From: Chrysomallon squamiferum
Lineage: Eukaryota > Animalia > Mollusca
DNA: 64,000 nt
Assembly (NCBI GenBank): GCA_012295275.1
Contig: CM022665.1
Coordinates: 24,614,001 to 24,678,000 of the forward strand
Direction of reading: 5' to 3'
This document shows, one piece after another, positions 22,801 to 47,894 of the stretch (the stretch's first letter is position 1; every line of letters starts with the position of its first letter). The notes under the pieces are model-generated. The model saw only the letters and a list, made by a program, of their open reading frames with translations. It ran no database searches and was not told the origin of the DNA. The position numbers and the translations under genes are program-made.

Positions 22801-23920
22801 TTTGAAAAAGATGAGAGAAGTGAACCAAAGAACTTTCCAATCAAAACCTGATTATATCTGTTGGATACAGATGAGAAAGAATGCTGAAGATCATTTTTTT
22901 GTTTTTTTCTAGCAGATGTTCACTCAATTCAGTAATAAAATTATTCAAATTTCTAAACTTTTTAGCTCTTGTTCCTATAAATTATAAATATATAATAAAA
23001 GGAAAACTTGTTTCATTAATGTGGTAAAAAATAATAATAAAAAACCAAGAATAAAATAATAATTAAAATAAGTGTGTAGATCACACCCCAAAGTAGAATT
23101 TGCTCAGTGTAGATCATATGCCAAAGTAGCACCCAATAGCTGTTGCTACCAATATTTCTTAAAATAAAGTACTATTAGATCAAAACACACTGATTGCAAT
23201 AGTATATTAACCGTAACAATCTACGAATCTAACCAAATTTTCAGTGGCTTTTTTATTGTATTATCTGAAATATTATTAACAATTAATGCAAATTAAATTT
23301 GTCCCTACTTTATACAATATTCAATAAGCTGAAGACCAAAATGGCGAAGAATTGGTGTGTATTGTTGTTGTGACAGTTCTAATCCACACTGTAGACAGTA
23401 CGGAGAAGATTCTTTAAAATCTTCACAAATCTACAATGAAAGGAAATAAATACTACATAAAGACAAACTATTTAATATGAATATTAACATTCAAGATCAT
23501 ATAAAGTGTAAATGTAAAGATATATTAATTAACAAATAAAATAATAAATTAAAAAATATATTACCAGGTGTCTGTTATTTATTATTTAAATTACATTAAA
23601 GTATTATTTATATAGTTGTTGACACTGCTGTCATTACAGTAATCACATATATCATAACTTATTTGTTTCAAAACTAATATTTTATCTTTACAAAAATTAT
23701 TTATTGATGAAAGGATTTTCCTTCAGTAAAAACTGTATTTTAAAAGATTTTAAGTAAACGGCAAAGTTTTCAAACATCCCATTTAAAGACTTTTGGCTCT
23801 TTGCCTTAAACAACGCACCTTGTAAGCTTCCTGACGTTCACTCTGCGTAACCATGTCATTCATCACAGTCTCGACGGCTGCTACCAATGTTGGTATAATT
23901 TCATGTATCATCCCTGTCAT
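1427..23920 (-). CDS. XPO5: Exportin-5 (importin-beta family pre-miRNA/dsRNA export receptor), 32 coding exons, ~1198 aa after removing one extra base
   Basis: Exons (- strand): 23920-23819, 23430-23309, 21514-21442, 20916-20779, 20428-20246, 19868-19650, 19024-18948, 18770-18674, 18333-18250, 18056-17931, 17506-17416, 17065-16943, 16399-16230, 15694-15602, 15041-14910, 14384-14278, 13691-13599, 13073-12974, 12502-12437, 9048-8932, 8699-8599, 8188-8092, 7208-7072, 6739-6642, 6540-6482, 5889-5807, 5130-4982, 4141-4037, 3488-3348, 2764-2696, 2165-2079, 1585-1427. They sum to 3598 nt (3n+1). Recognised XPO5 motifs: RHFGLQLIE, VELVKREWPQCWP, YLFLKRLCQVL, EFARMDFDSDEEF, VKNVRQHACSIL, GLRVHGQH, IGQQFQREIQYKNLPPLF. 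Confidence 0.95.
1923..1964 (-). mobile_element. Terminal fragment of a piggyBac-like MITE, same family as 58560-58769
   Basis: Reverse complement TTAACCCTTTCCTTGTGCTAAGTGGATGTATCCACTCAAAA closely matches the left end at 58556 (TTAACCCTTTCTTTGTGATAAGTGGATATTATCCACTCAAAA). Confidence 0.7.
3111..3260. repeat. 26-bp minisatellite, ~6 degenerate copies
   Basis: Unit GTTGCTTGATAATGATAATAGTGATA recurs at about 3111, 3137, 3163, 3189, 3215 and 3241. Confidence 0.8.
5465..5760. mobile_element. Tc1/mariner (pogo/Tigger-type) MITE, Tigger4/Zombi-like
   Basis: TIRs CAGCTTGAGAATTCCTTATC and GATAAGTGGTCCTCAACCTG, with TA on the left and TG on the right. The interior resembles my recollection of the Tigger4 consensus (not database-checked). 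Confidence 0.75.
6740..7071 (-). other. U12-type (minor spliceosome) intron of XPO5 with AT-AA termini
   Basis: 5' site ATATCCTTT at 7071; branch site CCCTTAAC at 6756-6749. Only a junction after ...TTTCAA (6740) keeps the frame (C|GT = Arg, giving PVIRVFTKPF). Confidence 0.85.
7408..7813. mobile_element. Tc1/mariner-type MITE
   Basis: Perfect 19-bp inverted repeat GTTGACCCTTGATTTCATG (7410) / CATGAAATCAAGGGTCAAC (ends 7811). TA dinucleotides at 7406-7407 and 7814-7815 fit a TA target-site duplication. Confidence 0.85.
9270..11990. repeat. Higher-order tandem repeat in the largest XPO5 intron (~460-570 bp period, built from ~100/200-bp subunits)
   Basis: Core CAGTCATGTAGACTCAAGAATG at 9445, 10011, 10546, 11075 and 11537, plus a diverged copy at 10825. 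Submotif ATTCTAAA(TTT) recurs more than 10 times. Confidence 0.9.
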
Positions 23921-23989
23921 GCTTGATAGTACACTGTTAACAAAACAAAATATTTTACGAGCACACTTTCTTATTTTCACCGGCACCTG

Positions 23990-24025
23990 TCGGACCAATC
24001 ATCACAAAAACCGGAAGTAAACTAA
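23990..24025. promoter_or_regulatory. XPO5 / gene A divergent promoter region
   Basis: CCAAT box (~23995) and ETS-type CCGGAAGT (~24011) in a locally CpG-richer segment 75-100 bp upstream of the XPO5 ATG. A + strand donor AG|GTAAAT at 24112 suggests a non-coding first exon of gene A. Confidence 0.55.
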
Positions 24026-24366
24026 AAACTCTTCCTTTTTAACAAAAGATTCAAGACCATAAAATTTACAAGTTGGGGTTTAAGATTTTATTTAATTCAT
24101 TAAATTACAAGGTAAATTTTTTCATCGGATAGAATATAATATTTGATTACGAATGCCCTTTTTATGATGGATATTTTAAAAGCAATTTAAATTTCTGAGA
24201 AACTGTCGTCAGTAAAATAAATAAAAATTTTGTTTATTATTTTTTTTTTTTTTACAATGTTTACAATAATTAACTATTAACAAGTATATTTTACTAGCAG
24301 TTAAGTAAAATCAAACTGTCTGTTTAAATTATTATACAAAACGAAGTTCACTAAATAAACGGGTGA

Positions 24367-24497
<131 letters not shown>

Positions 24498-24600
24498 GTA
24501 TCCAAATTTATGATGATAATCATTTTCATTTTGCAACTTAATATTAGATAATTGCTTACTATTTTCAATGAGGCCTTAAAAAAATAAAAAAAAATAAAAA

Positions 24601-24635
<35 letters not shown>

Positions 24636-24950
24636 TCTGATTATTTTTAAAAGTAGTTTGATTTAAATTGTGTGTAGTACCAAATCTGCACAATCTGAAT
24701 TGCACACAAAATAGAGATCAAAGAAGTTAAAAGTGTTTTCTACCTCTGTCTGTTAATGTTATATGTACAATTAAAAGCACATATAATGAGTTATAATTAC
24801 TATCTTGGTTATCAAATTAATGTTAATGAGAAAATGTCATGTAAAGTCTTCTGCCTGATGACCAGTTTCACCACTGTAAAAAAAAAGGAATAAATATTGT
24901 GTAAAACAAGTTTTATATCTGGTTTTATTTTAATTACTTTAGTCGCTGTT

Positions 24951-25862
24951 ATGCGGAGAAATGAAATACCACCACCTGGATTTTTATTTTTTGGAGAAGA
25001 CAGACAATTGCTATTCAATCAAAGAGGACTAAGACAACCCACTTATTATCATGTTGGCATACATTTTTATAGTTCTATTTATTATTCTCCGATTTATTCT
25101 GAACTAAATATTTTAAATGATATTTATATAATATACATTTAGTGTTCATTAGAGAGAAAAATTCAATTTTGTTTGTTTTCTTTTTGTTTTATAAGAATTG
25201 TATAATTTACTGTTGCTTAATTTTTTAATTTTTTTTTTATTTATAAATAAAGATATTAAAAAAAAAATGGATTTAATTTTTAAGTAGCAAGAAATTCTAC
25301 AGTCTTCACTAATGTAATATTAATCTGCATTTTCTTTCAGATTTTAAATCAAAACAGACAAACTGTGCGGCCATGTCCCGAAAGACAAATAACACAAAGA
25401 TTAGGGCCTTATCCAGTTAATGAACTGCAGAATGCAAGAGATGATCTTATTAACTGCTTGTACTTTACACCAAGTATAAGAGGAACTGCATTCCATCAGG
25501 TCAGGGAACTTGTTGGAATTGTTTCCAACCAGTTTGGTGCATTTCCACCAGTGACAACAGGATGTAATCGTATGACCTATGAGGAACATTCAACATCAGA
25601 GTTACAAACATTACTTCCTTGCCCATTACCACCATCAGACTTTTATAAAAATTATGAGTTAAATGTTAAGAAAAGAGACAGTTTTACTGGGAGAAAGATG
25701 TCAAAACTGAATGCTGAAGTTGGTGAATGTTCAGTAAATACTGATAATGATGATAGTTTAACTCATAGCAATAAAAATAACAAGACAAATATTGACAATA
25801 CTAGAAATGATAACATTTCATTACTGAATGCTGCAAAGAATTATCATTGTAGTTTTCCATAA
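24951..25862 (+). CDS. Gene A: uncharacterised ~207-aa protein with the unnamed 'PYPV' domain
   Basis: Exons 24951-25052 (weak donor GTTGGC, phase 0) and 25341-25862 (acceptor TTCTTTCAG). Domain PCPERQITQRLGPYPVNELQNARDDLINCLYF...VRELVG. AATAAA at ~26224. The first coding exon is less certain than the second. Confidence 0.7.
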
Positions 25863-28800
25863 AGTGGTGAAAATTATAGAAATGATAATGGTGATGATGA
25901 CAGTGATTCAGAAAAAGTATTTTCCTTGTGACAGAAGAGGAAACCAGAATGAACATAACAGATACTTCATCATCTTCTAATTCCTTAACAGACATTAACT
26001 AAATTGAAAAACTATTACCTGTTTGTAATTTTTACAAACAAAATTTTATATTGTTAAACACACACTTGGAGGATTATTTTGTTTCTTGTTATGGCATAAA
26101 TTAAATGCCAGGGTTTGTTTTTCTTAATTTGAATTTTATTTTTATTTTTAACATCCTGTTATCATATATATCTATTTTTTTAAATTCAAATTTCATATAT
26201 TTATATCTTGTCATATTCTGCTGAATAAAAATGTAATTGCCAAAATATCAAGCTTTATTTAGACTTTTAGACTTGCATCAAATATGGATACATTTTATAA
26301 CATGCATTTTCCATTCATGTTTGTGATAAACTCTGATAATCACAAAACAAGAATATAAATATTAGAATAATTTGAGATACATATCTCAAAACACAACATG
26401 TTTGATGTATATTAGATGCTCAAGGAATGATATAAAAATCTTTAATAAAAAATAAATAAATAAAATCACTAAAAATAATATGTGTTTCGATGTTAATGAA
26501 ATTTCCATTGTTTTGAAAATAAAAAATTTTATATTTAAAAGTGAAATAAAATATAGAATTTCTGTTTATATTTTTCACATTGCTGTTACTGAGTATTTAT
26601 TTTGTGATTTTTGTAATATTGATAATCTTTTATGAAGCACATATATAATTTAATGTTTAAAATGTTTTAATAATTATTGTTGAAATAAACTTTGTACTTT
26701 TATTATTATTATTATTATTTTTTTTTTTTACAACAGTCATTATTTTAACTAACCATTAATATAGGAAGTTATTTTAGAGAAATCTTATCTATTAAATATC
26801 AAATAAATATATTAAATTAAGTAAAACGGCCACAGTTAAAAACGATGCAAACATATGACGTCAGATTAAAAAGGAAAACGTTTTAATATGTTTTATAATT
26901 TCCAAATTGTGAAATGAAAATGTTAAAACAAATACAACGTTAAAATTAATACATAAAATATTACATGTACCGAAAATGAAAACCTTGCAAAAATTATAGT
27001 CTAAATATTAAATGTTTGGCAATGTAATTAAAAATATATATATTTCTAGTATATAGTATACCACGGAACAATGGCATTAAAGAAAACACATAAATAATGA
27101 TGCTTTTATAAATGGCTGAAAAAGCGACAAATTGCGCAAAAGAATTTTTGTTTGGCAACTTCATTGATTTATAGACATGAAATAAGTGATCCTCAGGAAA
27201 ACATATACAACGATATTTATACCAGAATTAACCCTGGCCATGTTGCTGGTTGAAAAAAACAAAAACAACAAAAAACAACTGAATAAAATAAAATAAAATA
27301 AAATTGATGTCTACATTAAAATTATAAATATTTACAAATTGTTTTGGACCTATCCCCTTTATCTAAAAAGCACAGTACGATGGTAACATGAAACAACTGG
27401 TATCGGACAAAAAACTAAAATTACCTGAAATCAGTCTCTGACATTGTCGAAATTTGTTCTGTGTACTTGCTCTCAAAATTTTACTAAAAACTTCATGGAC
27501 GTTTAGAAAACAAATACAATACAACATAACCTATAGAGTGCTGATAACGTTTCACCGCAGATCGTGAAAACTAATCAACGCATTTACTGGAACGTCATTT
27601 GCAATGGTTAAAAGAGCAACAGTCATAAACCGACTTATAATGGTACCCGAAATGTAATAGATGTTACCCCCACTAGATTTCTTTTTAAAATGTGTTACAT
27701 AAAAAAGGTATACCAATTAACTGAGAGTATCTACCAAATCTGAATAATGTTTCAGAACATTTTTTTTTTTTTTTTTTTTTTTAAAGCTATTGTTTATACC
27801 GATTTCTTTATACACATCTCCAGAAGTGCAGTGATAAAATAGCAGCATTCATATATTCTGTAACAATATTATTTTATTGTCACACCTTGTTTTGAGCTAT
27901 CACAGGTCGCCGAAAGTAATAAAATAACATTTGGGAAGGATTTTAAAAAAAAAAGTTTTAAAGACTGTTCATTTGTACCATCACAGGTAACACATTTATT
28001 TTCAGTTTAATCGTCTGTTCTTTCTTACAAATTCCAGCAACCTATTTGATGAAACACAACAGATAAAAAAAAAAATAATAATAATAATAAATAAAAAATA
28101 ATAATAATAATTAAATAAATAAATAAATAAATAAAAACGTTATTTTCCTTCTTGTTTCCGCCGGCCTAACGACAATGAAATTTTATTTGCCTGATAACAA
28201 ATCCAGTACGACAAATGAATGTTGTAATCTTTAAAGTTTTACAACAATTATCTTTATCGTTATTACAGGTCTTACGTGATAAATCGTGTGCAACTAATTG
28301 TCTAGTGAGAATGTGCCTATAGGCATTGTTTATGATTAGTGCCACATGTGTTTGGTTGTTGTTTGTTTATTGTTTTTTTACTTATTATTTGTGTTGCTGT
28401 TCTTGTTGGTGTTGTTAAGTTGTTTGTTTGTTTGTCGTTGTTGCAGTTTTTTGTTGTTGTTTTTTTGTGGGATTTTTTTTTTCTACATTTTAAAGTTTTC
28501 CATGCTAACAAAAGATGAGTTAAGATGTGAAATAAATTTATTTTATAGTATATTGTATTGCAAACTTAAATGGAGTAAACCAAGATAAATTAACTGAAAT
28601 AATAAATAAATAAATAAATAAATAAATAAAAACAATATAAAAAATAAAACTAATAAAAATGAAGCACATCAAGGTCTTCAAATCCGTTTACCTTCCATAT
28701 TTCATATCCGTTTTTTGCTTTAACCCACCTCCCATCCATGTCCCCTCACGTGACATACAATGCACGGATCACTGGAAGTTTTAGAAAGCCACGGACATAA

Positions 28801-29179
28801 TTGTGTTGTATGACTTTCCATGTTTTGGATGTTTACGTTATCTGTTGCAACTTTTCGTTAAGTATTTTAGTCATTTTAACAAAGGTATTAACTATATATT
28901 ATATTTTGTAACTACCATAAATACTTTATGTGTGGGTTAAAATGCATGCGTCAAAAAGAATAATAGGAAAGTTTTTTTTTTTCTTTTAATATTATTATAA
29001 ATATTAAAGTTTTAATTGCTCTGAGTATCACAATCATGTGTTGATTTGACATTAAAAAACGAAAAGGAAATGTCAATAAATTAGTATATATTCTTTTTCA
29101 GAAAGCATATGACTGGAAATACCTGTATTTTCAGCATAAAAATCAGTACACCGGTTGAACTCGATACTTAAAACAATAA

Positions 29180-30190
29180 ATGGATCAACGCTTTGATAAT
29201 TATGGTTATCCTAGCCCTCAGCATTTTCATCCTGAATTTTTGAGGTTTCGAGCATTTGATCCACCGACATGTGGATCACGTTTGCCTTTTGGGAACCCTA
29301 CATATTTTGGATGCGAAAGATATGATTTTCCAACACAAGGTCCATTTTTTCCTAATCTCAATGTAGGGCCTGGGCCATGTCGATTCGAACGACCATTTCC
29401 ACCAGTGTGTAACCAGTTTTCACCACCACTGAAAAGATCGGATTATTGGAATTTTCCTTATCCTCAGTTAGACCCACCAATAATTCCTTTAAACAGGCGT
29501 AAATTTCCTACTGTCCGACAACGATATAATAGTAAGTTATACAAGTCGTACTATTTTTATTCTTTTATTTTCCCTTTAAAGATAAACACTAAAGTATTGT
29601 TTCATTATTTAAAACTTAAAGATTAATTTATATGAACTATGCCAAATGTGGGTGCATGTGTTAATAACCAATTTCGCTACATTATGTGCTTGATACGACT
29701 TAATATTTTCTTTATTATGGCGAAAACAATTATCTACATTTTTGTGTATTTAAACAACCAAAAAATGTGCTCGTGACTAGTCTTTGCTGATAATAAAGTT
29801 CGTTTCATTGCATGATGATATCAGATCTTGCAGAAAATGTTTTTAAAAACAAAATTTTGAGGTAGGGTATTAGATGCATCGTTTTGTATTCATAATAGGA
29901 AGGCCTCAAATAAATTTTGATGAATTAGTTTCATTCGTCAATAGATTATTGCATTTTCAGTACCAAAACAGACGTCAGTTCCCGTTTCTTTTAGGATGAG
30001 ATCTCGGTATCATTGTAACACACAAACAAGAATACATAACCGGTTTAGATCCTGTGTAAAAAGACTTGGTGTACGTATATAGCTGGAAATGTATTAAAAT
30101 CAAAATTAATGCATTGCCACCGTTTTATATACAGAAACAGTAATATTTTATAATGTCATTATTAATTTTTTAAATTAAAAAATTGAAACG

Positions 30191-30226
<36 letters not shown>

Positions 30227-31061
30227 GCTACTCTAATTAAAAGCATTTAAGAAAGAAAGGGACGAAAATATAATACTTTAAAACAAATTCTGTAAATAAA
30301 GAAGTATATTTCAGTTTTACTTTGTCCCTAACCTGATTTTTTTTATTCAGAAAATTAAAAATATTCTCCAGATGTTTGAATGTTTCCATGATTAATTTTG
30401 ATATAGTTTTCTTTCGTTCTTGAATATAAATCATGTTCTTATTGTCGTATTTTGCATCCTCTTTATATTCAGTTGCTGGATAGGGAAATTACACATTTCA
30501 AAATAATTAAACACTTGCATTTTTTGTTTAATTTTTGCTAGTTTTTTTAACAATATTTCTGTCTAATACGAAGCGTATTTATCTTTACATGTACACATAT
30601 ACACAAACACTATACTTAGAATACGCATATCCATACAAAAAAGAATATTAAAAGTAAACTTTCTTGAAATGATTATATACTTTATTATTATTATTAATTT
30701 TCAGAACCCCCCAAGGCAAACACTTTCCAAACAAATACTTTTAATTCCTCCAGCTCGCGACGTTAAAGGTAACTGCCCCCCTTACCCGGTGGTGGAGCTG
30801 AATGCAGCACGGAAAAAACTAATAGATGAACTGTACTCGAGCTGTGGGGGAATTCGATTATCGAAGGTTAGACAAGCTGTAGGAGTGGTTACTGATTTTC
30901 CCATAGAAAACGAAAATAAATACAACATGTCCTATGACCAGCAAGCTTCTTTCCTGATGACTGTTCCTTTGCCATCTCCGCCTAAAGATGATTCAAATAC
31001 TGACGTTAAAGATAAACGCTTTGGGACGGACCGTTGTAAGAATTCTGAGTCTAAAAAGTGA
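29180..31061 (+). CDS. Gene B: uncharacterised ~272-aa protein, Pro/aromatic-rich N-terminus plus 'PYPV' domain
   Basis: Exons 29180-29531 (donor GTAAGT, phase 1), 29961-30070 (open frame, donor GTACGT, restores phase 0) and 30705-31061. Domain PPARDVKGNCPPYPVVELNAARKKLIDELY...VRQAVG. AATAAA at ~31183. Confidence 0.75.
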
Positions 31062-33114
31062 TTTTTAAAGACAGTTGTTGTTGATTTATTAAAGAATCGT
31101 GTGCACTTTTTTGTGCAGTTAATATTTAAAATAGAATGGATATCATTTTAAATCGCTTTCAGCATTAAGAATTAATTTTAATAATAAAAGAACAGCAGCA
31201 ATAAAAGGAATAAAATGTTACAGAATTTTTTTTTTTTTTTTAACAAAATTAAAAATAATAAAATAAAATAAATAATTAAATACGTATTACAAAAATGGTT
31301 GCATTAATAAAAATAATAATAAAAGAATACTTAAAAAATAGCTTTTTTGATATATGTTTAAATGTCCTAAATATATCTTACATATTATTTTGTTTGATGG
31401 GACGATATTTATTAACTATAGATTCGATCGTGAGTGTGCATGGAAACTGACATTTTTCTTCTTTTCCTGGCGCTGTTTCATTTTATTTAAAAGAAACAAC
31501 ACCGATTACAGTTTAAAACAGTTTCGTATTATTTAGTCTTCCCTAAAATAAAGTATCACTGCATCAAAATAAATAAATAAATAAATAATTCATCAAAATC
31601 ATCAATTTAATTAATAAAATAACAAAAATAAAAACAAAGCAAAGAATTTCCCCAAAACACTAAGCTGTATACCTTAATAATTTGATATAAACCGTTCTGT
31701 TGCAATTGTGATAATAAAAGACAGACGATAAATATTTGGCCCTGAAAACCGTAAAAATTGAAATGATAGTAAGATAATTTTATTTTTCGACAGAATTATG
31801 ACTTGATGTTGAGGAAAAAAACGGTAGCTGATTTCCTCGTTATCTCTGTGGTCTTTAACTAATAAAATTGTATTTTTAAATCCTTCATTAACAAAAACAG
31901 TTCCTCCTTTGGTGTTAGGGAATTGAAAGGAACGGGCCATAATCCTGATTTATAATATCAACAATCAAATTTTATAATTTACAAAAGTATACAAAATTAT
32001 TTTCTTAATTTTTATATGCAGAAATAACTTAATAAATCATTTTATGCCGTTTAATTTAGAGTTTCCTAGAGGACATTAAAATTACGGATAATTATATATA
32101 AAAATTAGTTATGATGCTGAACTGCTGAATAGTTAACAGCTAGGTCCATATTTAACAAATATTTCTGTAATTGTGTTAGAACTAATTAAAAGGGCTAATC
32201 AGTAATAAAATACACCGCCAATGTCAGTAATTATAATAAAACGTTGGTATTAGTCACAGAATAACTTGGCTGTTAATTTTTTCTTGCACATTAAACAGAA
32301 AAGAAAGGCCAAATATATGATGACCCTGCCATTGCAGAAGCTTCGATCAATGACGCGTTGCTCTGACACACCTAATCTTTTATATAAAGAATTCGTTGAC
32401 ATAGCAGTGTTTAAGCACTGCACTGCGATCTAAAGAAATGTAAACGAAACATGGAAATCGCACATTCTCAAACACCGTATTCTTTCACCATTAAGATTTA
32501 TAAGTAAATTAAAAGTCTTATTTTCGTAACAAAGTATATCATAGTATGGCATAAAATATAATATTTGAATGCCGTCATTTTACCATTCCATATCCAGTCA
32601 TTAAGTCACTGCGTACATTGCTAACTATATAACTGTGTGTGGGTTTTTTTCGTGGTTTTTTTTTTTTGTTTGTTTGTTTTTCTCGTTTTTATCTATTTCT
32701 TCGTATCACCAAAGTTACACTTTTAGGTGCAAGTAACAGATTCTTTGTTGCTACGGTGAACAAAAGAATCCCATGATTGTCAAGAAAATTAATACTATTA
32801 ATAATAGTCTGTATTTTACTGTAAGATAACACTACAGTTATTCGTTTCTTACTTTAATAAATAGGAAAGCTTTTGCAAACAATGCGACACTACTTCATTA
32901 TTTTTAAATTATGACTCTTGTTTCTTTAGTTTAAAACCTATCTAATAAAATATCCATTTGATTTTTTTCATACTGTTTCAATTTTATATGCACAATGTCA
33001 TACGTAGTGAAAAATATTGTAATTTTGTTCAGTTCCGGAGGAAGTAAAACCTGGAACATGAAGAAAAGATCACTTTTTTATTTGATCATTATTGAGAAAA
33101 CTTATTAAAGTCTA

Positions 33115-33152
<38 letters not shown>

Positions 33153-34929
33153 TATTTATATCGCATTATAAAATATTAAACAGTACTGGTATTTGATGTA
33201 ATGGAAGAATGTACGAAAATAAGAAAAACTAAGCATAGACCATTCAAATGCAACCGTTCCGCTTTCTTTGCGGTATAAACGAGGTAGTTAATTAAACGTT
33301 AAAGAACAGTCAACAGAGCATTGGAACACGTTGGTAAATGTTATGTATCGGGACGGGTGTAAGAATTCGGATTTTTTTTTAAAATGAATTAACCAGTAAG
33401 TTTCATATTAGTGCAGTACATCTACCTCAGTTGTTGTTGTTGGGTGTGTGTTTTTTTTCATCCTATAAATTGTAGTACAGAACTATATAACTATCATCTG
33501 TCAATAATTGGAATAATTCAATAAACTTTTTAAAAATTAATTATTTTTATTTCAAATTTTTATAATATGGGTTTTAACGTACCTTGACCAATCTTAGAAT
33601 CTCACAATCCATGAAGTGGTTTCTCGAATCACATAGTAATCGGGTAACTGAACTTCAGTGAATACTTGCATGGCAGAAAACATGCATAACTATGTACATT
33701 TTAGGGGACAGGCGATGCTGCATTCAACTTCAAGTGAAGAGCTGTGAATATTGCAGCAAACACGAATACAACGGATACTATTCCATCGTTGTCATGGAGG
33801 CTATAGTCTAAATGGCAGCTGATTTAATTTATAATCATGCTGTTTAACACACAGGAGCGGTTTAAAACGTTGATTTTTATTTATTTACCATATTGTTATT
33901 TTTATTTTTAAATGTAACAATACACAGCAATCTTTAATTATAAATGATTAAAGCATGAATTTTATCAACAAAATGTTATTAATTTTATGATCCACATGGT
34001 ATAAACTGCTTGAATTATTACTAAAAATATAACTGTATTTACTTTAGATTCAACAGATGACTGCAGGAACATTGCTAGTTTTGCCAGTTGCAGAATGATT
34101 ACAAAAAACAAGTAGGGGTCCAAGTATGAATGTTAATAATCTAGTATGTATATTTCAATTAATTTTGCATATAAAGAAATATATTGTTTATTTCAGTCTT
34201 TTTATTGATTAAGTGGCATCTTACAGAAAGTGTATCTTTAATTATTTTTTGTAGTTTTATAAATTTCTCTGTGACTATAGGAAAGCAGGCTGTATTATTG
34301 TTATACTACTTTAGATCCATTTATTCCTAACTATTAGGAATAGTTATTCACAGTCCAGGAGAAACATTCAGTATTGTTACTAATTCAGTAAGGAAGAAAA
34401 TTAAAATGTTAGGTGTGAAAAACCATTTCTAAATTAACTCTTTAGTGTTCTTTTGAACATGAGAAAAAATAGCATAAATACATTGTTTATTCTTCCAAGT
34501 TATGTTCTTGGTTTCTGTAATAGTCTTAATGAAATATAACAATAAAAGGGTAAAGTTAAAGATACAAGACTGAGAAAGCCGCCAAGTTTATGTGCAGGGC
34601 AGATCTGTTTGCTGTAAAGGTTTTTCGAACAGTAGAAAAATACAGCTGTCAGTCTGCCATGTATGGGATGAAGTCACTACTCCAGCAGTAATGATGACAT
34701 CTGAATTTTTGTTTTTAGTGTTAAGAATGTCCTAAAGTACAGTGTATAAAGAATCATATTGCTGTAGATACTTTAAAAAAAAGAAAAAAAGGTTACATTT
34801 CATTATTGTAATCATAAGTGTTATTCTGCATTAATATATTGGTCTTTCATCCCCAAAGCAAAATTTTTGTAACTGCTAAAACCTGTATATATATATATAT
34901 ATATATTTTTTTTTTTTAAGAATCTAAGA

Positions 34930-36087
34930 ATGAGGCCTCCTCCATCTCGAGACGTTGATGGATCTTTTTCACCATATCCTGTGCAGGACTTAAAGATGGC
35001 AAGGAATATACTAATTAATGAATTATATTTTTCACCTGGAGGAGGCAGAACTGTTCATCGTGTTAGAGAAGTGACAGGAATTTTGCCAAACAGACATGGC
35101 ATATACATCGGGAATCAAATGTTTCCAGATGTTTCAAATTACAGTGACCAGTCTACATCATTAATTTCTATGTCCGTTCCCAGTAACAACTTGGCATTGG
35201 AAAATAATCATGCTTCTAGTCCCAAAACCTCAGATTTTAAGGGATTTCAGGGTGATGTACAAACTGACACACACAGGTTTTTAAAGAAAACAAGAAAGAT
35301 ATCTAAATCAGTTGAAGGAATGGATAAAAGCGAAGCAAATAATACTCTAAGTCACGATGTTGTGGAATATGAAACTAATCAAAACATTCCAATAACTGTT
35401 AAAGCTTACAAATGTGATTTCTGCAATTATATTTCTAAAAATCAAATAGCTGTTAAAGATCATTTAATTAACAAGCTTCATTATTCAGCCAGCACCTATG
35501 ACTGTCTATTAACCAAAGATAAACTAAAACCATGCTCTGTTTGTAGAGAGATGTCTCTTGTTAATGAAGCAGCCTCTTTTTCATCAGTCATTGCTGTGTG
35601 TTCTTATTGCCTAAGCATCTTTAAAAACATTCATTCATGTGCTAGACACAGCACCAAAGTACATGGAAAAGGTATTTACTCCTTGGCTGATGTAAGAAAA
35701 ACTCAGAAGATAACTGTCACAAAATACGATAATTGTGCAGTGTGCAAAAGTTGTTCAACACCAAAACAAATGGTTACTCATCTGAAACAACATGATATGC
35801 AGTACCATTCATATGAACATCCTCACTCAACCGATATTGTGTTATGCATTTGCCCCAAGTGTAGATTTACAACATGCAGTATTACCAGATGTAGAATTCA
35901 CATTCTGTCACATCTTATATGTTTGGAAAATAAAACAATGGAATTTAGACTCTTGTTTATTGAAAAGCCATCTTCTGAATATCAATTACTACTATCCAAA
36001 AACTACAAAAAGTCTAAAGTGAGGAAAAGAAGAAAAAAGGCTAAACAACCCCCCCACCAAAAGAAATTAAAAACTGTTAAACATTAG
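34930..36087 (+). CDS. Gene C: 385-aa protein, 'PYPV' domain plus ~4 dispersed C2H2-type zinc fingers and a basic NLS-like tail
   Basis: Uninterrupted ORF after the acceptor at 34920. Domain PPSRDVDGSFSPYPVQDLKMARNILINELY...VREVTG. Fingers CDFC...HLINKLH, CSYC...HSTKVH, CAVC...HLKQH, CPKC...HILSH. Tail KKSKVRKRRKK. AATAAA at ~36105. Confidence 0.85.
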   Translation: MRPPPSRDVDGSFSPYPVQDLKMARNILINELYFSPGGGRTVHRVREVTGILPNRHGIYIGNQMFPDVSNYSDQSTSLISMSVPSNNLALENNHASSPKTSDFKGFQGDVQTDTHRFLKKTRKISKSVEGMDKSEANNTLSHDVVEYETNQNIPITVKAYKCDFCNYISKNQIAVKDHLINKLHYSASTYDCLLTKDKLKPCSVCREMSLVNEAASFSSVIAVCSYCLSIFKNIHSCARHSTKVHGKGIYSLADVRKTQKITVTKYDNCAVCKSCSTPKQMVTHLKQHDMQYHSYEHPHSTDIVLCICPKCRFTTCSITRCRIHILSHLICLENKTMEFRLLFIEKPSSEYQLLLSKNYKKSKVRKRRKKAKQPPHQKKLKTVKH

Positions 36088-36618
36088 AATTAAACGATTT
36101 GTGGAATAAAAAGTTATTCTTTATCAGTTCTTGTTTGTTATTATTACCTACAAATCTTGAATTTAAGAAAATAATTTTATTGATTCATATACTTTTATGT
36201 TGCTGCCATAATGGTTGGTATACTAAACATGATTTAACATTATTAACTGTTTGTGATTTCCAGATAGACCTCAAGCTGGTTCAGACAATCAGCATAATTC
36301 TGTGACTTTCTGAGCCTAATTTATAATTTGGGACATGTATATTAATATACTATCATTGAAATACAAAATGAAAAATTACATTTTTACTTGTTGGAAGATG
36401 TTTCCACTGGATGCAATGTCGGTCTCTATCCATTTAACTGAAGGATGTAAGTTTGAACTGTATAAAATGTAATACTTTAACAAAAATGATTAAATGCAGA
36501 GAACAAAAACAGTTATGTTCAAGAATTAAAGCAAGAAAGAAAAACCCCCAGTAATTTATCATTTTAATGATTCATGATAATTAATCCATTTCTGGAAAAT
36601 TTTGGGGCATTTGCCTGA

Positions 36619-39600
36619 TCACTTGGATGATTCACAATTATCTGACACATGCTGATCAGTTTCCTCTCCAATGTACTGAGAAATATGTTCAACAATTGAT
36701 GAAACAGAACTGTTTTCCAATAAGCCATTTCTCACTGCTTCCAACAGTTGAGGAATAAAAATATCAGAAAAAACATCCAGTGAATTTGGTATAAAATCAT
36801 CCATGTTGATTCTGAAAAGAAAAACAAATATTTTTAAAACATACCCAGTATAAATATATTCATGTACATAACTTGTTGCACATCCAAAATTTAAAACAGT
36901 TGATAATTATCAAATGCTTTGATGTAACGTTAATACTATTCAAGCCTTATGAGTTTAAACTACTTAAAATTATAAAAATTCAAAGTCAGCAATTTTAAAA
37001 ATCTGAAAACCGTATCTTGTAATAATTTATAAAGTAATAATTATCAATTTATTAAGTAAAAGAAATTATTTTTAAAGTAATTTAAAGGCAAACTTACTCT
37101 TCGTCTTTCTCTACTGATATACGAGTCATGACACACGTGCCACAATGCAGCAGTGAGAATTCCAGCCTTTCTTTGATAATCTGGAATTTCAGTATCTGGG
37201 ATTCGTATTTTGTGTTTTTTATTACTGAACCTATTTATGGGAAAAAAAACTGTTGGAGTTACTCAAACTTCATTACCATTTTAAAATTAATTATTATGCA
37301 TTTTCACATTATTATTAAAAGATCGTTGGCAAAAATTGTATTAAATAATTTTCTATCACATAATTCTTATTAAACCTGTATTAACAAATTAACATAACAG
37401 CTGCAGGACCTGGGCTAGCACAGTAAAAACAATTACAATTTACAACTGTTAGGTAAAAATTTTAACCTCATTTTCTTCATTTCCCACCAAAGGATTTCCA
37501 CACATTTAAACCTAAATTGTTCCATTATGAAGATTTAATTATTTTGAAAATAAAAATGATTATATTACCTGCCTCAATCATCTCTTCTAGTTCCCTGAAC
37601 CATTTTGATAAAAAACCTGTCTTTCTTCTGTTTTCTGGAAATAAATCAATCAAGAATATATTCCATTTTCAGATTTTGGTAATTAAAATACTTTCTGCAA
37701 TATTTCAGAATGGAAAGATTCTTTAAATTTAATAACCAATATTTTGAAAAGTATTTTATTACTGTAAAATGACATCATGATATAAAGAAAAAAATTGAAA
37801 TAAAAGCAAAAACACATTTAATTTTTTTTTAAAGCATACTAACTCAGATTATAACTTTTGCCAAAAATCTCAAAATTCGGGGAGCCATAACTCCCACACC
37901 ACTGGTTTGACTGGACTAAAATTTCAGATTTGGTGCTGTGGGATCCCTGTCAACAAGTACATAAACGGTCGGGTACATGAGACGGTCGGGTTTAAATTTT
38001 CATTTTTTTGGGGTGATTTGACATGGAATGACCCCATATTTTTATTTTCCTTACCACCTTTTATAGCTGACAGCATCAAGTCTGCTTCACGTGTCATGTT
38101 CTTAAACTTAATCTGTTCTTCCAGTTCCAGTGATTTAATTTTCTGACGATGTATTTCAGATGCTAGAGGCAATACTTTATAATAACTAAAAAAGTGAGAA
38201 ACAAATGTTTAGTAAGTTTTTTTTTCTATAACCACCATAATTAAATTCTTGAGTCACATAATATTTTATAGCATGTACATTTACGATTTATGCAAATAAT
38301 AGATTTTAATGTACATTTTGAAATTACATTCCTGCAGAAAATTATGCTAATTACTTTAACCGATTAAGGTCGAATTATGTTTATTAGTAGAGGGTAAAAA
38401 AAAAATTTACATAAAGGAACATTATTCAGCACAAACATCTTTTTTGTTTCTCTGTCCATTTTCTCAGTAACTGTTGCCGTATCATTTTGGACAATTTCTT
38501 CCAAAAGCTGTTTCTTCCTTGACATCAGTTTATGTTTAATGTGTTGAAGTTGGGAAATTTCCATTTTAACCTGAAAAAATAGAAAACTATTTTAATTATG
38601 AAATTGTTATTTTTATATCTTCTAGCCAAATGTTTAGTTTTAAAAACATTTATAAATGAGGATAAAAGGTATTTAAGGCCAAATGAAGCAAGGTTAGTCT
38701 AGCTGCTTGACAATAACTAAACAATAGGTAATTTTATAAATTTATTTACTGAATAACAGTGGCCATAAACAACTGTATTGACACCTGCAGGAACTGTAAA
38801 GAACCGTGTAAATTTGTGGGGTTTTTTTTGGTACCATCAGCTTTATTTCTGTAGCAGACTTCCTATCATGACCTATGTAATAACCTTTCTCACCTATTTG
38901 CAAAGAGAAAATGAAACTTAAGTTAATGAAATCCATTCATAATCTTTGTTCTGATAAGCCTTTTAAAAGCTGATAAAATACTGTTTTCTGAATGTATATT
39001 ACATTTTGTTTTACTTTTCTTTTAAATAAAGACTGTTGTATTTTGGAGTAATGAAAAAAGATCAGGCAAATTTTTATTAATGTGCAGAAATGTTTGAAGA
39101 TTAGCTTTAACAGGTTACTTGTTAAGCGGTAAAAAATGACATTGCTCTTTGTGGTACTTGCTAGTTTTGATAAAGTTTGTTTCAAAGTGTAAAATAAATA
39201 AATAGTTTCATTTGTTATTACAATATAATATATTATTAACAAGTATTATTAGTTTTTGGTGCACCCATTTTTCTTGAAGAAAAATAATGATACAATCAAA
39301 ATATGAACTATATATATATATATATATATATACATATGACCCATTCTCAAAAGGTGAGCCTTTTTGTGTGACACAAAGGCATTATTTTGAAAATTATTTT
39401 TAATAAATTTAAGAACTAGAAGATAGTCCGAGACCATTTGTTGATGGTAAAGGTCATTACCCAAAACAAGCTTGATATGATCAGATGTGACTGATGACAC
39501 GAAAACAAGTCAAACAAAATGCTATAATAATAACAACTGGAACAGGTTGCTAAATGTGCATTAACTTATTAAGATAGGCTACTTTAAACATCTGAATAAA

Positions 39601-42050: not shown

Positions 42051-45000
42051 ATGCCAAGTAAAAAGAAAAAGTATAATTCTAGATTTCCACCGGTAATTTA
42101 TTTTCTTTATATTTAAAATATTTATATTTAATTCTGACAGGTTATCGATGATTTTAAAATATTAAAATGTCTATTATTTTAGGCACGAATAAAGAAAATT
42201 ATGCAAACTGATGAAGAAGTTGGAAAAGTTGCAGCGGCTGTTCCAGTGATAATTTGTATCCTTTTGTCGAGTCACCTAAATGACACAGTGAACAATCTTT
42301 CCCCTTATTTAAAACCAGATTAACAAGGCACAGGTAATCAAGAAACCAGTGTTCTGGCTGTTAACGGAAAATGGCTTCAACACAGGCACATTATTATTAT
42401 ATTTATAATCACATGATCAGTGTGAACAATTAATATTGTATCGTAATGAGTATACTACATTAGCCAATCAGTAAAAACAATAAACTCCTTTTCAACATGA
42501 ATGATGAAAATATAAAAAATTATAAAAGCACATTCTGTTAAGTAGATTTAGATATTACTTATATTACTCATTAATGTGCTGTTAATTCAGAAGAAATTAA
42601 ATCATATTTTTTTATTCTTAAAAAAAATAATAAAAATAAAAATTAATAGTCTTTCCTAAAAAAAAAACCCTGAATTTATAGTACATATAAAATTGGAAAC
42701 CAAATTATTTGGAAAAATTCAGTAAAATAATGTATGATGTGTGTAAAAATGAAGAAAATAGTAAAGAAAATATTTTAATCTTTCATTCTGTTTCACTTAT
42801 GTTAGTATATTATAGATTCAAACTCCCATTTAACTAGAATTATATGTTTTAATTAATGCTTTTTAAAATGAAACAAAACAGTAAGATTCAGTTGCATATA
42901 TAACAGAGTAAACCAGGTTATTAACATATGCTGTTTATCCATTTCTTCAGTGGTTCATTCTAATTTCATCTATGTTCGAATGAAAGTTTTCAAATGCCAC
43001 AGTTACAGATTAAGTATTGAATACAGATGTTACTAATTTTAGGAAAAGATTGAAAAGTAACTGAATAGGAGATATCTTGTTTATTTACACTATTAGACAG
43101 TCATAATTTGAAACATCTGTTACACTAAATGTTTCATCCTTAACCTGTTTCAAGCTAGAGCACTTGAAATGTTCATTCAGTCTCTTATTTTGAAATCTAG
43201 TGAGACAACTACAGCCAGAAATGCCAAAACGCTTACTCCCTCGCATATGTAGGTGTTGACAGTTTTGTTTTATGTCTGATTGATAAAATTTAAAAACAGT
43301 TTTGTACAGCTGTGCAAAAAAAAAAAAAAAAAATGAAATCAATTTTTTTAATCATTTTACCCCAATTAAATTTAATAACTGCAATATTTTATTTCATTAA
43401 ATCAAGTTTATATCAATAAAGTTTTGGAATATTTCAAAGGTTTACATTAATTACCATTTCAAATAAACAACTTAAAATGCTTATATATGTGTATGAAATC
43501 CATCTTTACTTATTTACTATTACTGTTACCTTATTTTTTTCACATGTTAAAATAACTGTTGTATTAACATATGTTTTATTGATAGATTTAACAAAAATTT
43601 GATTATTTATTTTGAAGAAAACAGACAATTCATGCTGAGAAAAACTTTGATTTTCTACATGATCTTGTATCAAACATTCCTGACCACCAGCAAGAAGATG
43701 ACTCTGTTAATGCTGGTGAACCAAAAAAATGTAAAATTGGCAGGTATGTTTATTATCTCCTTGAAATATCACATGAAATGTAATAACTAGAGGCGTAATG
43801 GTAAGATTATATTTTTATTTGTTTGTTGACAAATCCAGTTTGGACCTATGTTGAACACTGTTTATGATACATCAAGAATTTTATAATACTAGAATATGCT
43901 TTGCTTCAGTGAAAATGAACCAATCATTTGATCTGATATGATAGTAATTCTCTTTGATACATCTATTGGCCTAGCTGGACTTTGAGTTACATGAAAATGT
44001 GTTCAGTAGTTTTTAGGCATTTATTTATTCACTGTTATTTGACTTTGAGCTTAAAATAATCATGTAAAGACATTATAACACTAAAGTAATGCCTTAAATA
44101 AAATATTGCCTGTAATAAATATTGCCTTAGAAATGTGCAAATCTATTTTAATTGTTTTTATTATAATTTAGTATACTTGAAATATTTCTTATCTAAAACC
44201 TAAGAATTATACACACACATGTGCATATATAAATACATATATCCATTAACACACCCCCATATCATATAGTTACATATATATATATTTTCTTTTTTCCAAT
44301 TTTTTTAAATTACTGATTTATGAAAATATTTTTGAAAGATACCATCCATAAAGAAAATTTTGTGTACATTGTGTGATAAAATTTATATATGCTGTATTTT
44401 ATAGACCTAGGAAACAGCATGAGGCTGGTTGTTCAAGAAAAATAAAAGACAGAAAAGTATCATCAGATAGTTCGGAAGTTAATGTAAGTTTTTTTTGTGT
44501 CTTTTCTGTCGAATAGTTTTTCTTAATTTTCGTTCTACTTTCTTTTTCTTTTCTTTTTTCCTTTTGTCCTTTCTTTTGGACATAAGGTATGTTATACATC
44601 ATTTTTTTTACATACATTTAGCATGGTGAAGCATTTATTATTTAAACATTTTATATTATCTCACTAAGTTTTTACTTCCTTACCACCATTTAATAATCTG
44701 GGTATAATTAATTTATCAGGATAGCATCAGAATGTAACACTAGCATTTTTTTATATTTTTAATTAGGATGATGAAGAGACAGAAACTGATGAAGATCAAG
44801 ATCAGTATGAAAGTGAGGATGCTAGACCTGCTCCTACAACAGGTACCATTCCAACAGGAGCCCTCCCAGCCGGAGCCATGCCAACAGCAACAGCATCCAC
44901 AGGAACAATGTCAGCAGCAATATCTGTAACTGGTGTACGCACTGCCTGTAATTCTCATGATATGAATCCTTCCACTCAGCATCCTCTGCCTTTGTCCCAC

Positions 45001-45808
45001 CTACAAGGATTGCAACAGCAGCAGCCACATCCAACATCATTTAGCAGGTATTTCTCGTCTTACCCTAGAATGTTTAGCTTTATTTATTTTATGCTAAGTA
45101 ATATATATGTGTATATTTTTTAATTTTAAATGTTATGTTTAAATTAAATATAATTTGCATTACCATGATAATTATTTTTCACATAGAAGTTGGGTTTTTT
45201 TAATTATGCTGCTGTATGATTTTTAAGTGTATGTCATTTGTTATGAATCTATCAGATTGAAATTTGTCATTGGAGCTTTTGATATCATGTACATTTTACA
45301 AAGATGAAAAATGTTTAGTTTTGTACACTATAACCAATGAGTATATGTATTAAAATGATGCATTTAATTGTCATAAATATAAAATCTTTAGAATATTTCA
45401 AGGAAAAAAATATATTGACTGGGAAACTTTTCTGTTATTTTGGTAAATTCACTGTTTGAAAATATTGGAGTGATATCAATATATTTATTATTTTGACATT
45501 TCTGTAAAAATAAGCCATCAGTGTCGTGCAGACACATTTATTCATTTTGTCATGTATGTTTGATAAAGCTGTTTTAACATCTTTATTGCAGTGTACCTCC
45601 ATTCCAGAATCCTATTCCTGGGATGTCCCAAGCTGCACCTTTTTATCCAATGCCAGCGATGGGTGGAATGCCATCATCACTCCTGCCAGCAATGCCACGA
45701 ATGTCTTGGACTTCTCAGTTTGCATCATCAAAGTCTGACACAGCTAATCATTCTCATTCATGGAAAGCTGATCATGGATTGAAGCAAGATGATGATTACG
45801 ATGCATAA
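42051..45808 (+). CDS. DRAP1: Dr1-associated corepressor (NC2 alpha, histone-fold), ~303 aa
   Basis: Exons 42051-42092, 42183-42255, 43155-43248, 43618-43743, 44405-44483, 44767-45047, 45592-45808. Translation begins [45 protein letters not shown], includes [13 protein letters not shown]...FDFLHDLV, then an acidic/Pro-rich tail ending DDDYDA. Confidence 0.96.
42256..43154 (+). other. U12-type GT-AG intron (DRAP1 intron 2)
   Basis: 5' site GTATCCTTT at 42256; branch site TCCTTAAC at 43137-43144, 10 nt before the 3' end (AG at 43153-43154); no polypyrimidine tract. Confidence 0.92.
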
Positions 45809-47894
45809 CATTTTGTACCAGCCGGCTCAGAAAATTGTTTTATTACTAAAAATATTGATTTGCAGACAGATTTGTGTTTTGCAAGAGTTTGAATTTTAAA
45901 CTACATTGGTTTTAAGAAATAGATGGGGTTTTGTTGTTATTGTTGTTTTATGCCTTGTGTGTAATGCTCAGTGCATTTCAAGTATGGTTATGCTTGTGGG
46001 TGGGGTTGACTAATTCGTTATGTGAAGAACTGTTCAGTAATTAATTCTGTTAATGAACAGTCTTGTTTTGCCTCTTTTTTTATATCACGTTTAATACCAA
46101 GAATGCTTCCATTTTGCTCAAGTTTAACTGTTATCTTTGAATGCTGTTCTGCCTGATGTTTAATATTTTTATTTTCCTCACCTGTACATCAGTCATGTTT
46201 GAGGTACTTATACTTGAATCACAGTGAGAGTGGAAATGTTAGAATTATTCTTAGAGTTTGATTATTACCCATTCTTATATCAGTTTATTTCTGATATTTT
46301 TTTCTTGTTGTTAGTTCTCTAGGCCATTTTGTACTACATTAATTGGGTATTGAGGATGGGGAAAGAGTTTCTTTTCACAAAATACCTACTTGATAAATGT
46401 TATTCACTTTGATTTTTCAGAATATATGTTAGCGTGATTTCTGCATGTAAATTGGTAATGAAATGTTATTGGATATTGGCTTTTCATGTCTGCAGGAGTA
46501 TATAGGTTAAAGATTTTGACTTGATGTCAAATAATGAATAGCAACAACCTCTGGTCATTTGTTAAAGGTAAGGGATTACAGTTATACTGTGACATTGCCA
46601 AATCATAGCAAATTAATGTTGGAATGTTATTTTAAGTATATATTTTTTGATTAACAACATTTTAATTAACACAGATGTTATTTATCGTTAAATTGATTAT
46701 TTTACATAACAAAAATGTAATAGTCACCAAGACTTTTGACTGCTTTACAGCTGTCAGTGGTAAGCTCTCATTCTAAACAGAGTGTCATTCCTTTAATAAA
46801 ATGCATTTTACAAAACTGAAAAACTGATCAGTGATGGGTCCTATGTTTTTTTAAATTTAAAATATTTCACATACATGTAATACAATTACTTTATTAAAAG
46901 TTAATAAAGTAAATTAGTTAATTTTTATTATTTTCAGCAAGAAACACACTAAGTTAACAAATTTTGCACAAAATTCCATCCAAAAATAGATTGTCCTGCA
47001 AAATCTGTATTCTGTTAATAGGATAGTCACCTATTTGGAATGAGATTCTGTCCATTATTGGATTTAACAGCTACCATATCCTGTAAATCTAATCTGATGT
47101 TGTTAAAGAACTCAAATGGACAGGAGACTTCTAATGTTGTAAAGATTTGAGTGTATAGCTTATTGGCAAAGAAAATGAAAATTAGTTCTCTTATAGTTTA
47201 CTTCAAACTGTTTTTTCTTTGTATGTAAATGTGAACTTATACAAAGCAGTGATTAGTGGTATGTATCAAGGTCACATAAGTACATTTGTTGATTTATTGT
47301 TTATCATATTGATGACCAAAAATTTTGATACCCTAGAATAGAGATAGAAAAGAAAAGACAGTAGGAATGCCAGTTTGATAGGTAATTTGTGATAACCTTT
47401 GTTGTGGAGAAACTGAAATGTTTGTGAAATTATTTGTCATCAGAACAGAAACTAATATTTCAGTAACTTTCTAACACATTTGGAAATAATTGTATTTCTT
47501 AAAACAATGGTTGGGTTGGGAAAACAATTTAAGAAATAAATAATAATAAATTTAAATGTTTGTCAGGATGAAAAGACAATGATTTTAGACATTTTATTTT
47601 GTTTTAGAAGAATATGGTAGTATTAATCTATCATATTGAAATTTATTGTTGGACATTTTGATGTCATGTAAAAAAAGTTGAAAAGCAATATTTTTGTACA
47701 TTGTGTAAGTATTAAACTTTGTTGATGTTGAATACAGTTTGTTATTTTTTTCACTGACTCAGTAAACTTGTTATTATTGTTATTAATATTTTATTGATGC
47801 AAATGAATATCTAAATAATCTGTATATATCAGTACTTAAAAAATAATTATTAATATTTTTATTTTGTTTTATTTTTTTGAAATATAAAAACCAA

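What the first reader, a model, noticed from the sequence alone, without database searches (positions are those of the whole stretch)
24951..36087. Three tandem genes share an unnamed ~85-aa domain, one with zinc fingers and two without: candidate new ZF-associated domain system
Seen: the three products align as A PCPERQITQRLGPYPVNELQNARDDLINCLYF-x10-QVRELVGI...MTYEEHSTSELQTLLPCPLPP; B PPARDVKGNCPPYPVVELNAARKKLIDELYS-x8-KVRQAVGV...MSYDQQASFLMTVPLPSPP; C PPSRDVDGSFSPYPVQDLKMARNILINELYF-x9-RVREVTGI...SNYSDQSTSLISMSVP. The consensus P-x-R-x7-8-PYPV-x-[ED]L-x2-AR-x2-LI-x2-LY...VR[EQ]-x2-G is kept although the DNA is highly diverged, which points to purifying selection. C adds ~4 C2H2 fingers and an NLS-like tail, B adds a Pro/aromatic disordered arm, and A is nearly domain-only. 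Established: KRAB, SCAN, ZAD and BTB are N-terminal effector or dimerisation domains of C2H2 proteins, and finger-less versions exist (e.g. SCAND1, KRAB-only proteins). Inference: this may be a lineage-specific equivalent, with C targeting nucleic acid and A/B acting as adaptors or dominant-negative partners. I do not recognise the domain.
Basis: partly seen in the sequence, partly recalled or inferred. Interest (0 to 1): 0.85.

Follow-up and report, generated by a model that had tools for sequence, protein, structure and literature searches.

The report
Unnamed snail zinc-finger partner domain
Three neighbouring genes of what is likely a marine snail share an unnamed, well-conserved 85-residue protein domain that abalone also carries on a zinc-finger protein; the two finger-less genes likely arose as partial copies, and the domain likely works as a protein-docking module through which they would tune the finger-bearing protein.

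Summary
Observation confirmed. Three + strand last exons (A, B, C) encode one ~85-aa domain (32-40% identity, far above shuffles). Gigantopelta aegis has RefSeq orthologues of all three, upstream exons included; Haliotis has only the finger-bearing C type among the hits. No Pfam, NCBIfam, PDB-sequence or fold match names the domain; 1.84 billion representatives gave 5 hits. The domain is more conserved than the fingers (68% vs 50% to G. aegis; 39% vs 26% to H. rubra). The KRAB/SCAN/ZAD analogy holds only in architecture: C is single-copy in what was found, its four C2H2 fingers are spaced 39, 23-27 and 14-19 residues apart with no TGEKP linker, domain and fingers share one exon, and RefSeq files B and C as isoforms of one gene. 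Best reading: an old gastropod nuclear protein with a docking domain and a protein- or RNA-binding finger block, plus two lineage-specific finger-less copies acting as competitors or adaptors. Binding is untested. A real undescribed domain, narrow in range, function inferred.

The parts
24015..24111 (+). Gene A exon 1, non-coding; start approximate
   Evidence: Loose ends of 49-95 nt in 3 of 4 runs match 24080-24109; donor AG|GTAAAT; CCGGAAG motif at 24011
24943..25052 (+). Gene A exon 2; ATG at 24951, 34 codons
   Evidence: Covered by contigs in 4 of 4 runs; 50% identical over 24 aa to the N terminus of G. aegis XP_041353184.1
25341..26305 (+). Gene A last exon; CDS ends 25862; longest contig ends 26305
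   Evidence: Joint 25052 to 25341, GT..AG, in 4 of 4 runs
25365..25634 (+). Shared domain, copy A
   Evidence: 52% identical over 89 aa to P0005
27425..27500 (-). Upstream exon of an exportin-5-like transcript (runs on beyond 27500); would put gene A antisense inside its first intron
   Evidence: One 4006-nt contig in 1 of 4 runs, loose end matching 23904-23933; GT and AG at the two ends; exportin-5 match E 0.0035 for one exon
29180..29531 (+). Gene B coding exon 1: Pro/aromatic-rich arm
   Evidence: Donor A|GTAAGT; 36% identical over 128 columns to P0009
29961..30070 (+). Gene B coding exon 2: basic segment (not mentioned in the finding)
   Evidence: Keeps the frame, AG and GT ends; 41% over 34 aa to P0009; Arg+Lys 23%
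30705..31061 (+). Gene B last coding exon; domain copy B at 30747-30983
   Evidence: whole model 44% over 260 columns to P0009, E 5e-63
34921..36087 (+). Gene C coding exon; ATG at 34930; 385 aa
   Evidence: Acceptor TTAAG|AATC; 41% over 428 columns to G. aegis P0001
34930..35184 (+). Shared domain, copy C: extended Pro-rich segment, then predicted helices 18-34, 38-49, 60-64, 71-80
   Evidence: AlphaFold2 with 15 sequences, mean pLDDT 69.9, 78-88 over residues 1-40
35413..35913 (+). Four widely spaced C2H2 fingers, likely two copies of a two-finger module
   Evidence: halves align with hhalign probability 88%, E 2.8e-6
36010..36045 (+). Basic NLS-like stretch
   Evidence: 9 of 12 residues Lys/Arg; 6-10 of 12 in the six relatives

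Best explanation
The three genes encode one conserved, unnamed ~85-aa domain that likely acts as a protein-docking module: in C it would tie a block of four spaced C2H2 fingers (likely protein- or RNA-binding) to a conserved nuclear partner, and the finger-less A and B, likely partial tandem copies of C, would compete for or relay that partner. Shown: the domain, its conservation, the gene models, orthologues, splicing of A, finger spacing. Inferred: C is the ancestral form; the domain exon was duplicated twice with its phase-0 acceptor before the split from Gigantopelta aegis, lost the fingers and gained new upstream coding exons; nuclear location; the docking role. Untested: any binding, the partner, and whether A or B affect C.
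For: Domain is the most conserved part of C: 68% vs 50% (fingers) vs 31% (linker) to G. aegis; 39% vs 26% vs 13% to H. rubra, so it had a function before A and B appear. Seven positions are invariant in 12 of 12 rows (P15 Y16 L21 A24 R25 L28 G50). The domain is small, predicted helical, with no conserved Cys/His set, and a low-identity linker of 68-137 residues separates it from the fingers. C-type proteins occur in two Haliotis species and two unnamed Logan records, finger-less forms only in G. aegis and unnamed ENA records. All three copies start at a phase-0 acceptor 17-25 residues before the PYP motif. A and B keep open frames and orthologous upstream exons; A is spliced in 4 of 4 runs. 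The fingers are not clustered (gaps 39 in 7 of 7, 23-27, 14-19); PMC12774644 (section read) sets clustered at 10 or fewer residues and links single fingers with added strands to protein interaction. Their best Pfam matches are zf-C2H2_2 (passes cut-off in 2 Haliotis proteins), zf-met and zf-C2H2_jaz. A SIM-like stretch (motif recalled) lies before the fingers in 5 of 7.
Against: No binding evidence of any kind. No fold match gives a function. The domain tree is mostly unresolved (6 of 9 inner branches open, A not recovered as one group), so the order of duplications is not shown. Absence of A/B types in Haliotis rests on searches that can miss diverged copies: P0012 scores only 6.7 bits on the domain HMM. 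No relic of fingers is left behind A or B. The SIM-like stretch is missing from the window's own C. Invariant Arg residues and a helix pair would fit nucleic-acid binding as well. Co-expression of A, B and C in one tissue was not shown.
Confidence: 0.42

Rival explanations
1. SCAN/SCAND1-like system: the domain self-associates, C is a dimeric nucleic-acid-binding regulator, and A and B heterodimerise with C as adaptors or dominant negatives.
For: Same architecture: N-terminal helical domain, linker, C2H2 fingers, basic tail, plus finger-less tandem paralogues. SCAN and ZAD genes form small clusters and dimerise (PMC5509000 passages); SCAND1 hetero-oligomerises with MZF1 (PMC9777339 abstract). 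Helix 1-2 residues are conserved across A, B and C.
Against: Fingers are not a clustered array; no family expansion; SCAN and ZAD mostly homodimerise and only close copies heterodimerise (PMC7913770 listing), while A, B and C are only 32-40% identical.
Confidence: 0.25
2. The domain itself binds nucleic acid through its helix pair, so A and B are autonomous RNA- or DNA-binding proteins and not regulators of C.
For: Invariant R25 (12/12) and R46 (11/12, K in the twelfth) on the two main predicted helices; B adds a basic exon and a Pro/aromatic arm, both kept in G. aegis.
Against: No match to HTH or RNA-binding families by sequence; G. aegis and ENA A-type tails are acidic (D+E 23-25%, K+R 0%).
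Confidence: 0.15
3. The domain is a fast-diverging piece of a widespread metazoan protein, or a domesticated transposon/Gag piece as SCAN is, whose relatives fall below detection.
For: P0012 keeps only the core motif (6.7 bits) and was missed by the exhaustive domain search. SCAN derives from Gag.
Against: No transposase or Gag family at E up to 1; no relative in viral or metagenome contigs (0 of 86 and 0 of 593 pattern matches); no fold match among viral models; low copy number.
Confidence: 0.15
4. A and B are decaying duplicates with no function.
Against: Open frames with saturated synonymous sites; orthologues with the same upstream exons in G. aegis; A spliced in 4 of 4 runs.
Confidence: 0.03

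Closest known systems
SCAN-C2H2 proteins with SCAND1
   Same: Helical N-terminal domain of similar size on C2H2 proteins, small tandem clusters, a finger-less member (PMC5509000 passages; PMC9777339 abstract).
   Different: No sequence match; vertebrate family of tens of genes with clustered fingers, against one finger-bearing gene with spaced fingers here; dimerisation untested here.
ZAD-C2H2 proteins
   Same: 71-97 aa N-terminal domain, lineage-restricted, clustered genes.
   Different: ZAD has two invariant Cys pairs; this domain has no conserved Cys. No expansion.
KRAB-ZNF and FiNZ-ZNF
   Same: Lineage-restricted N-terminal domain with no similarity to known domains (FiNZ; PMC10547256 passages).
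   Different: There the domain has its own exon upstream of a finger-array exon and families run to hundreds; FiNZ is 28 aa and acidic. Here domain and fingers share one exon and are conserved, not fast-evolving.
Spaced C2H2 proteins of the zf-C2H2_2 (PF12756), zf-met and zf-C2H2_jaz types
   Same: Fingers 1 and (in Haliotis) 3 have H-x5-H spacing; two Haliotis proteins pass the PF12756 cut-off (29.9 and 27.8 bits against 26.9).
   Different: The window's C passes no cut-off; an invariant 39-residue gap and an extra invariant Cys in fingers 2 and 4 match no named family found here.
Gigantopelta aegis LOC121371386 (isoforms X1-X3) and LOC121371390; Haliotis rubra LOC124276125
   Same: Orthologues of C and B, of A, and of C.
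   Different: All are named 'uncharacterized protein'; no domain is annotated on the shared region.

Membership tests
C2H2 zinc-finger protein (gene C) | C-x2-C ... H-x3-5-H motifs with conserved ligands | tested here: met
   Four motifs in 7 of 7 C-type proteins; 14 of 16 ligand columns invariant in alignment A8
Tandem-array DNA-binding C2H2 factor | Clustered fingers, 10 or fewer residues apart, TGEKP-type linkers (linker motif recalled) | tested here: not met
   Gaps 39, 23-27, 14-19; 0 TGEKP-like linkers in 7 of 7; threshold from PMC12774644
SCAN-C2H2 | Sequence match to the SCAN family | tested here: not met
   No SCAN hit at E up to 1 in 12 of 12 members or at E up to 10 for the 3 domain copies
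SCAN-C2H2 | Five-helix capsid-like fold | tested here: inconclusive
   Model has four helices, half of it under pLDDT 70; best Z 3.2 among 48161 chains
SCAN-C2H2 | Homo- or heterodimerisation through the domain | not tested
   No complex prediction was obtained; needs bench work
ZAD-C2H2 | Two invariant Cys pairs binding zinc | tested here: not met
   No column of the domain has Cys as its commonest residue (12 rows)
KRAB-ZNF / FiNZ-ZNF | Effector domain on its own exon upstream of the finger exon | tested here: not met
   Domain and fingers lie in one open exon, 34921-36087
KRAB-ZNF / FiNZ-ZNF | Large, fast-evolving family | tested here: not met
   5 hits in 1.84 billion representatives; 6 of 3110 candidates; the window's own genome is not held, so copies elsewhere in it were not counted
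KRAB-ZNF | Corepressor (TRIM28) recruitment | not testable with these tools
   Needs interaction assays
BTB-ZF | Sequence match to BTB/POZ | tested here: not met
   No BTB hit
Transposon- or virus-derived protein | Match to transposase, Gag or viral proteins | tested here: inconclusive
   No hit; eukaryotic repeat libraries were not available

The most novel reading that the evidence does not exclude
An undescribed self-associating domain, possibly with a new small fold, defines an independently evolved gastropod counterpart of the SCAN/SCAND1 system: one ancient finger-bearing protein controlled by two dedicated finger-less partners, one of them (B) made from the same transcription unit as C.
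Probability: 0.2. Interest if true: 0.68.

Novelty: new variant of a known kind. Interest (0 to 1): 0.45.

Why it matters
Zinc-finger-associated domains are described for vertebrates (KRAB, SCAN, FiNZ) and arthropods (ZAD); my searches found none described for molluscs. This is a definable new domain family with orthologues in abalone, where tissue and bench work are feasible. It is also a clean case of new genes made by partial duplication of one exon. Limits: narrow known range, no expansion, no function, so the impact is on mollusc gene evolution and domain catalogues unless an interaction is shown.

Tried and rejected
Pfam, NCBIfam and PDB sequence searches: nothing for the domain. TAL-repeat rows (E 0.004-0.5) are sums over many repeats, each with E above 600: rejected. 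DUF728 on B (E 0.03-0.06, 14-15 bits against a cut-off of 29.3): rejected. Fold searches of the domain model: Foldseek PDB and viral no match at E up to 0.001; VIA-align best Z 3.2, none at 5 or more; this shows neither a new fold nor a different one. The full-length C model (pLDDT 40.9) and its searches are uninformative. ESM Atlas: generic C2H2 clusters for P0001 (120-144 of 256 features in the top rows) and nothing at 0.9 for the domain. No relative in JGI metagenome or IMG/VR contigs. Earlier findings: none. Papers: no hit for LOC121371386 or Haliotis with LOC124276125; LOC121371390 was not searched; supplements were not searched and could list these genes in expression tables. No genome is held, so copy number outside the window is unknown.
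Full report
1. Setting. The window is an AT-rich (23-34% GC) spliced eukaryotic region; no genome is held. The nearest named relatives of all three proteins are from the snail Gigantopelta aegis, so the source is likely a related gastropod (inference). Neighbours are an exportin-5-like gene on the minus strand (one exon matches human exportin-5 at E 0.0035) and a glycogen phosphorylase gene.

2. Observation. Three + strand exons (25341-25862, 30705-31061, 34921-36087) encode the quoted peptides. They find each other at E 1e-8 to 1e-14 and score 107-154 against shuffle maxima of 46-61 (500 shuffles each). There is no fourth copy in the window (3 of 2052 segments). Synonymous sites are saturated (pS 0.70-0.75) and pN/pS is 0.61-0.69; this points to constraint but is biased by aligning on protein.

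3. Gene models. A: exon 1 about 24015-24111, exon 2 24943-25052, last exon from 25341; 207 aa. Contigs of 4 of 4 RNA runs (one study) carry the 25052-25341 GT..AG joint, with almost no depth in the introns, and 3 of 4 continue upstream into 24080-24109. B: three coding exons, 272 aa, canonical ends, 44% identical over 260 columns to G. aegis P0009 with each upstream exon matching on its own. C: one coding exon, 385 aa, 41% to P0001. RefSeq names P0001 (C type) isoform X1 and P0009/P0007 (B type) isoforms X2/X3 of one gene, LOC121371386, and the A orthologue LOC121371390. B and C may therefore share an exon; I could not see the G. aegis DNA.

4. Range. A profile of the three window domains, run over all 1,835,955,588 representatives, gave 5 hits at E up to 0.001: P0002, P0004, P0005, P0006, P0007. 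Word-indexed searches gave 1 of 1193, 2 of 2553 and 6 of 3110 candidates; new in the last were Haliotis asinina P0010 and two unnamed Logan proteins. C-type proteins: G. aegis, unnamed ENA records, two Haliotis species, two Logan records. Finger-less types: G. aegis (A and B) and unnamed ENA records (A). The most distant protein, P0012, keeps only the core motif (6.7 bits on an HMM built without it), so more distant copies can be invisible.

5. The domain. In 12 rows (two near-duplicates and one truncated isoform left out) seven positions are invariant and five more are kept in 11. It is more conserved than the fingers: 53/78 against 102/202 to G. aegis, 32/82 against 51/198 to H. rubra. AlphaFold2 with 15 sequences gives an ordered extended segment and two helices (pLDDT 78-88 for residues 1-40), then two weaker helices. 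No family, solved sequence or fold names it. The tree groups the two B copies (100/99) and the Haliotis-like trio (99/100); the rest is unresolved.

6. The fingers. All 7 C-type proteins have four C2H2 motifs; the gap between fingers 1 and 2 is 39 residues in all 7, the others 23-27 and 14-19; none has a TGEKP-like linker. The block looks like two copies of a two-finger module (probability 88%), with an extra invariant Cys in fingers 2 and 4. PMC12774644 (abstract and one results section read) associates unclustered fingers with added strands with protein interaction more than DNA binding. Weak Pfam matches point to zf-C2H2_2, zf-met and zf-C2H2_jaz. A basic tail is present in all.

7. Mechanism. 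Shown: items 2-6. Inferred: C is ancestral, since it alone is found in Haliotis; its coding exon was partly duplicated twice with its phase-0 acceptor (17-25 residues before PYP in all three); A and B then gained their own N-terminal exons. A small, non-catalytic-looking, highly conserved module joined to the fingers by a variable linker is most simply a docking domain. Finger-less copies would then compete for the same partner or bring it elsewhere (0.42). Self-association as in SCAN/SCAND1 (0.25), direct nucleic-acid binding by the domain (0.15) and a hidden older or mobile origin (0.15, not exclusive of the others) remain open. No complex prediction was obtained.

8. Comparison. It resembles SCAN/SCAND1, ZAD and KRAB/FiNZ systems in layout (PMC5509000 passages; PMC9777339 abstract; PMC10547256 passages) but fails their sequence, exon, cysteine, finger-clustering and family-size features. 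PMC12513265 (passages) on cephalopod C2H2 expansions names no associated domain in the passages shown. Searches for two of the gene ids found no paper; topic searches (listings only) showed no description of this domain. The library lacks most subscription journals and supplements were not searched.

9. Verdict. A real, undescribed domain of narrow known range, with a conserved finger-bearing gene and two finger-less copies. New variant of a known kind; interest 0.45.

Noticed in passing
window 23933-27500, minus strand: One 4006-nt RNA contig in 1 of 4 runs joins an exon at 27425 and above to the exportin-5-like start exon (acceptor at 23933, ATG near 23920), so gene A would lie wholly antisense inside the first intron of that transcript; A's own start lies about 80 bases from that acceptor.
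   Followed up: partly
window 25052-25053: A uses an unusual donor, CAT|GTTGGC, yet it is spliced in 4 of 4 runs.
   Followed up: yes
P0001, P0002, P0006, P0010, P0011 linker before finger 1: A SIM-like stretch (motif recalled) in 5 of 7 C-type proteins, absent from the window's own C and from P0012.
   Followed up: partly
P0007: G. aegis isoform X3 of the B orthologue ends inside the domain, after the first helix and a half: a possible truncated splice form.
   Followed up: no
window 36600-39000, minus strand: A spliced gene converging on C, ending about 530 bases from C's stop; four ORF pieces had no Pfam match at E up to 0.1.
   Followed up: partly
window 42100-45810, plus strand: Exons that read like the histone-fold repressor DRAP1/NC2-alpha (recognised from memory, not tested).
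   Followed up: no
window 60254-62083, minus strand: Glycogen phosphorylase exons (Pfam PF00343, E 1.7e-37 and 6.8e-21).
   Followed up: yes
window 25018, 25416, 25928: Single-base differences between RNA contigs and the window in gene A, each in 1-2 of 4 runs; most likely alleles.
   Followed up: no
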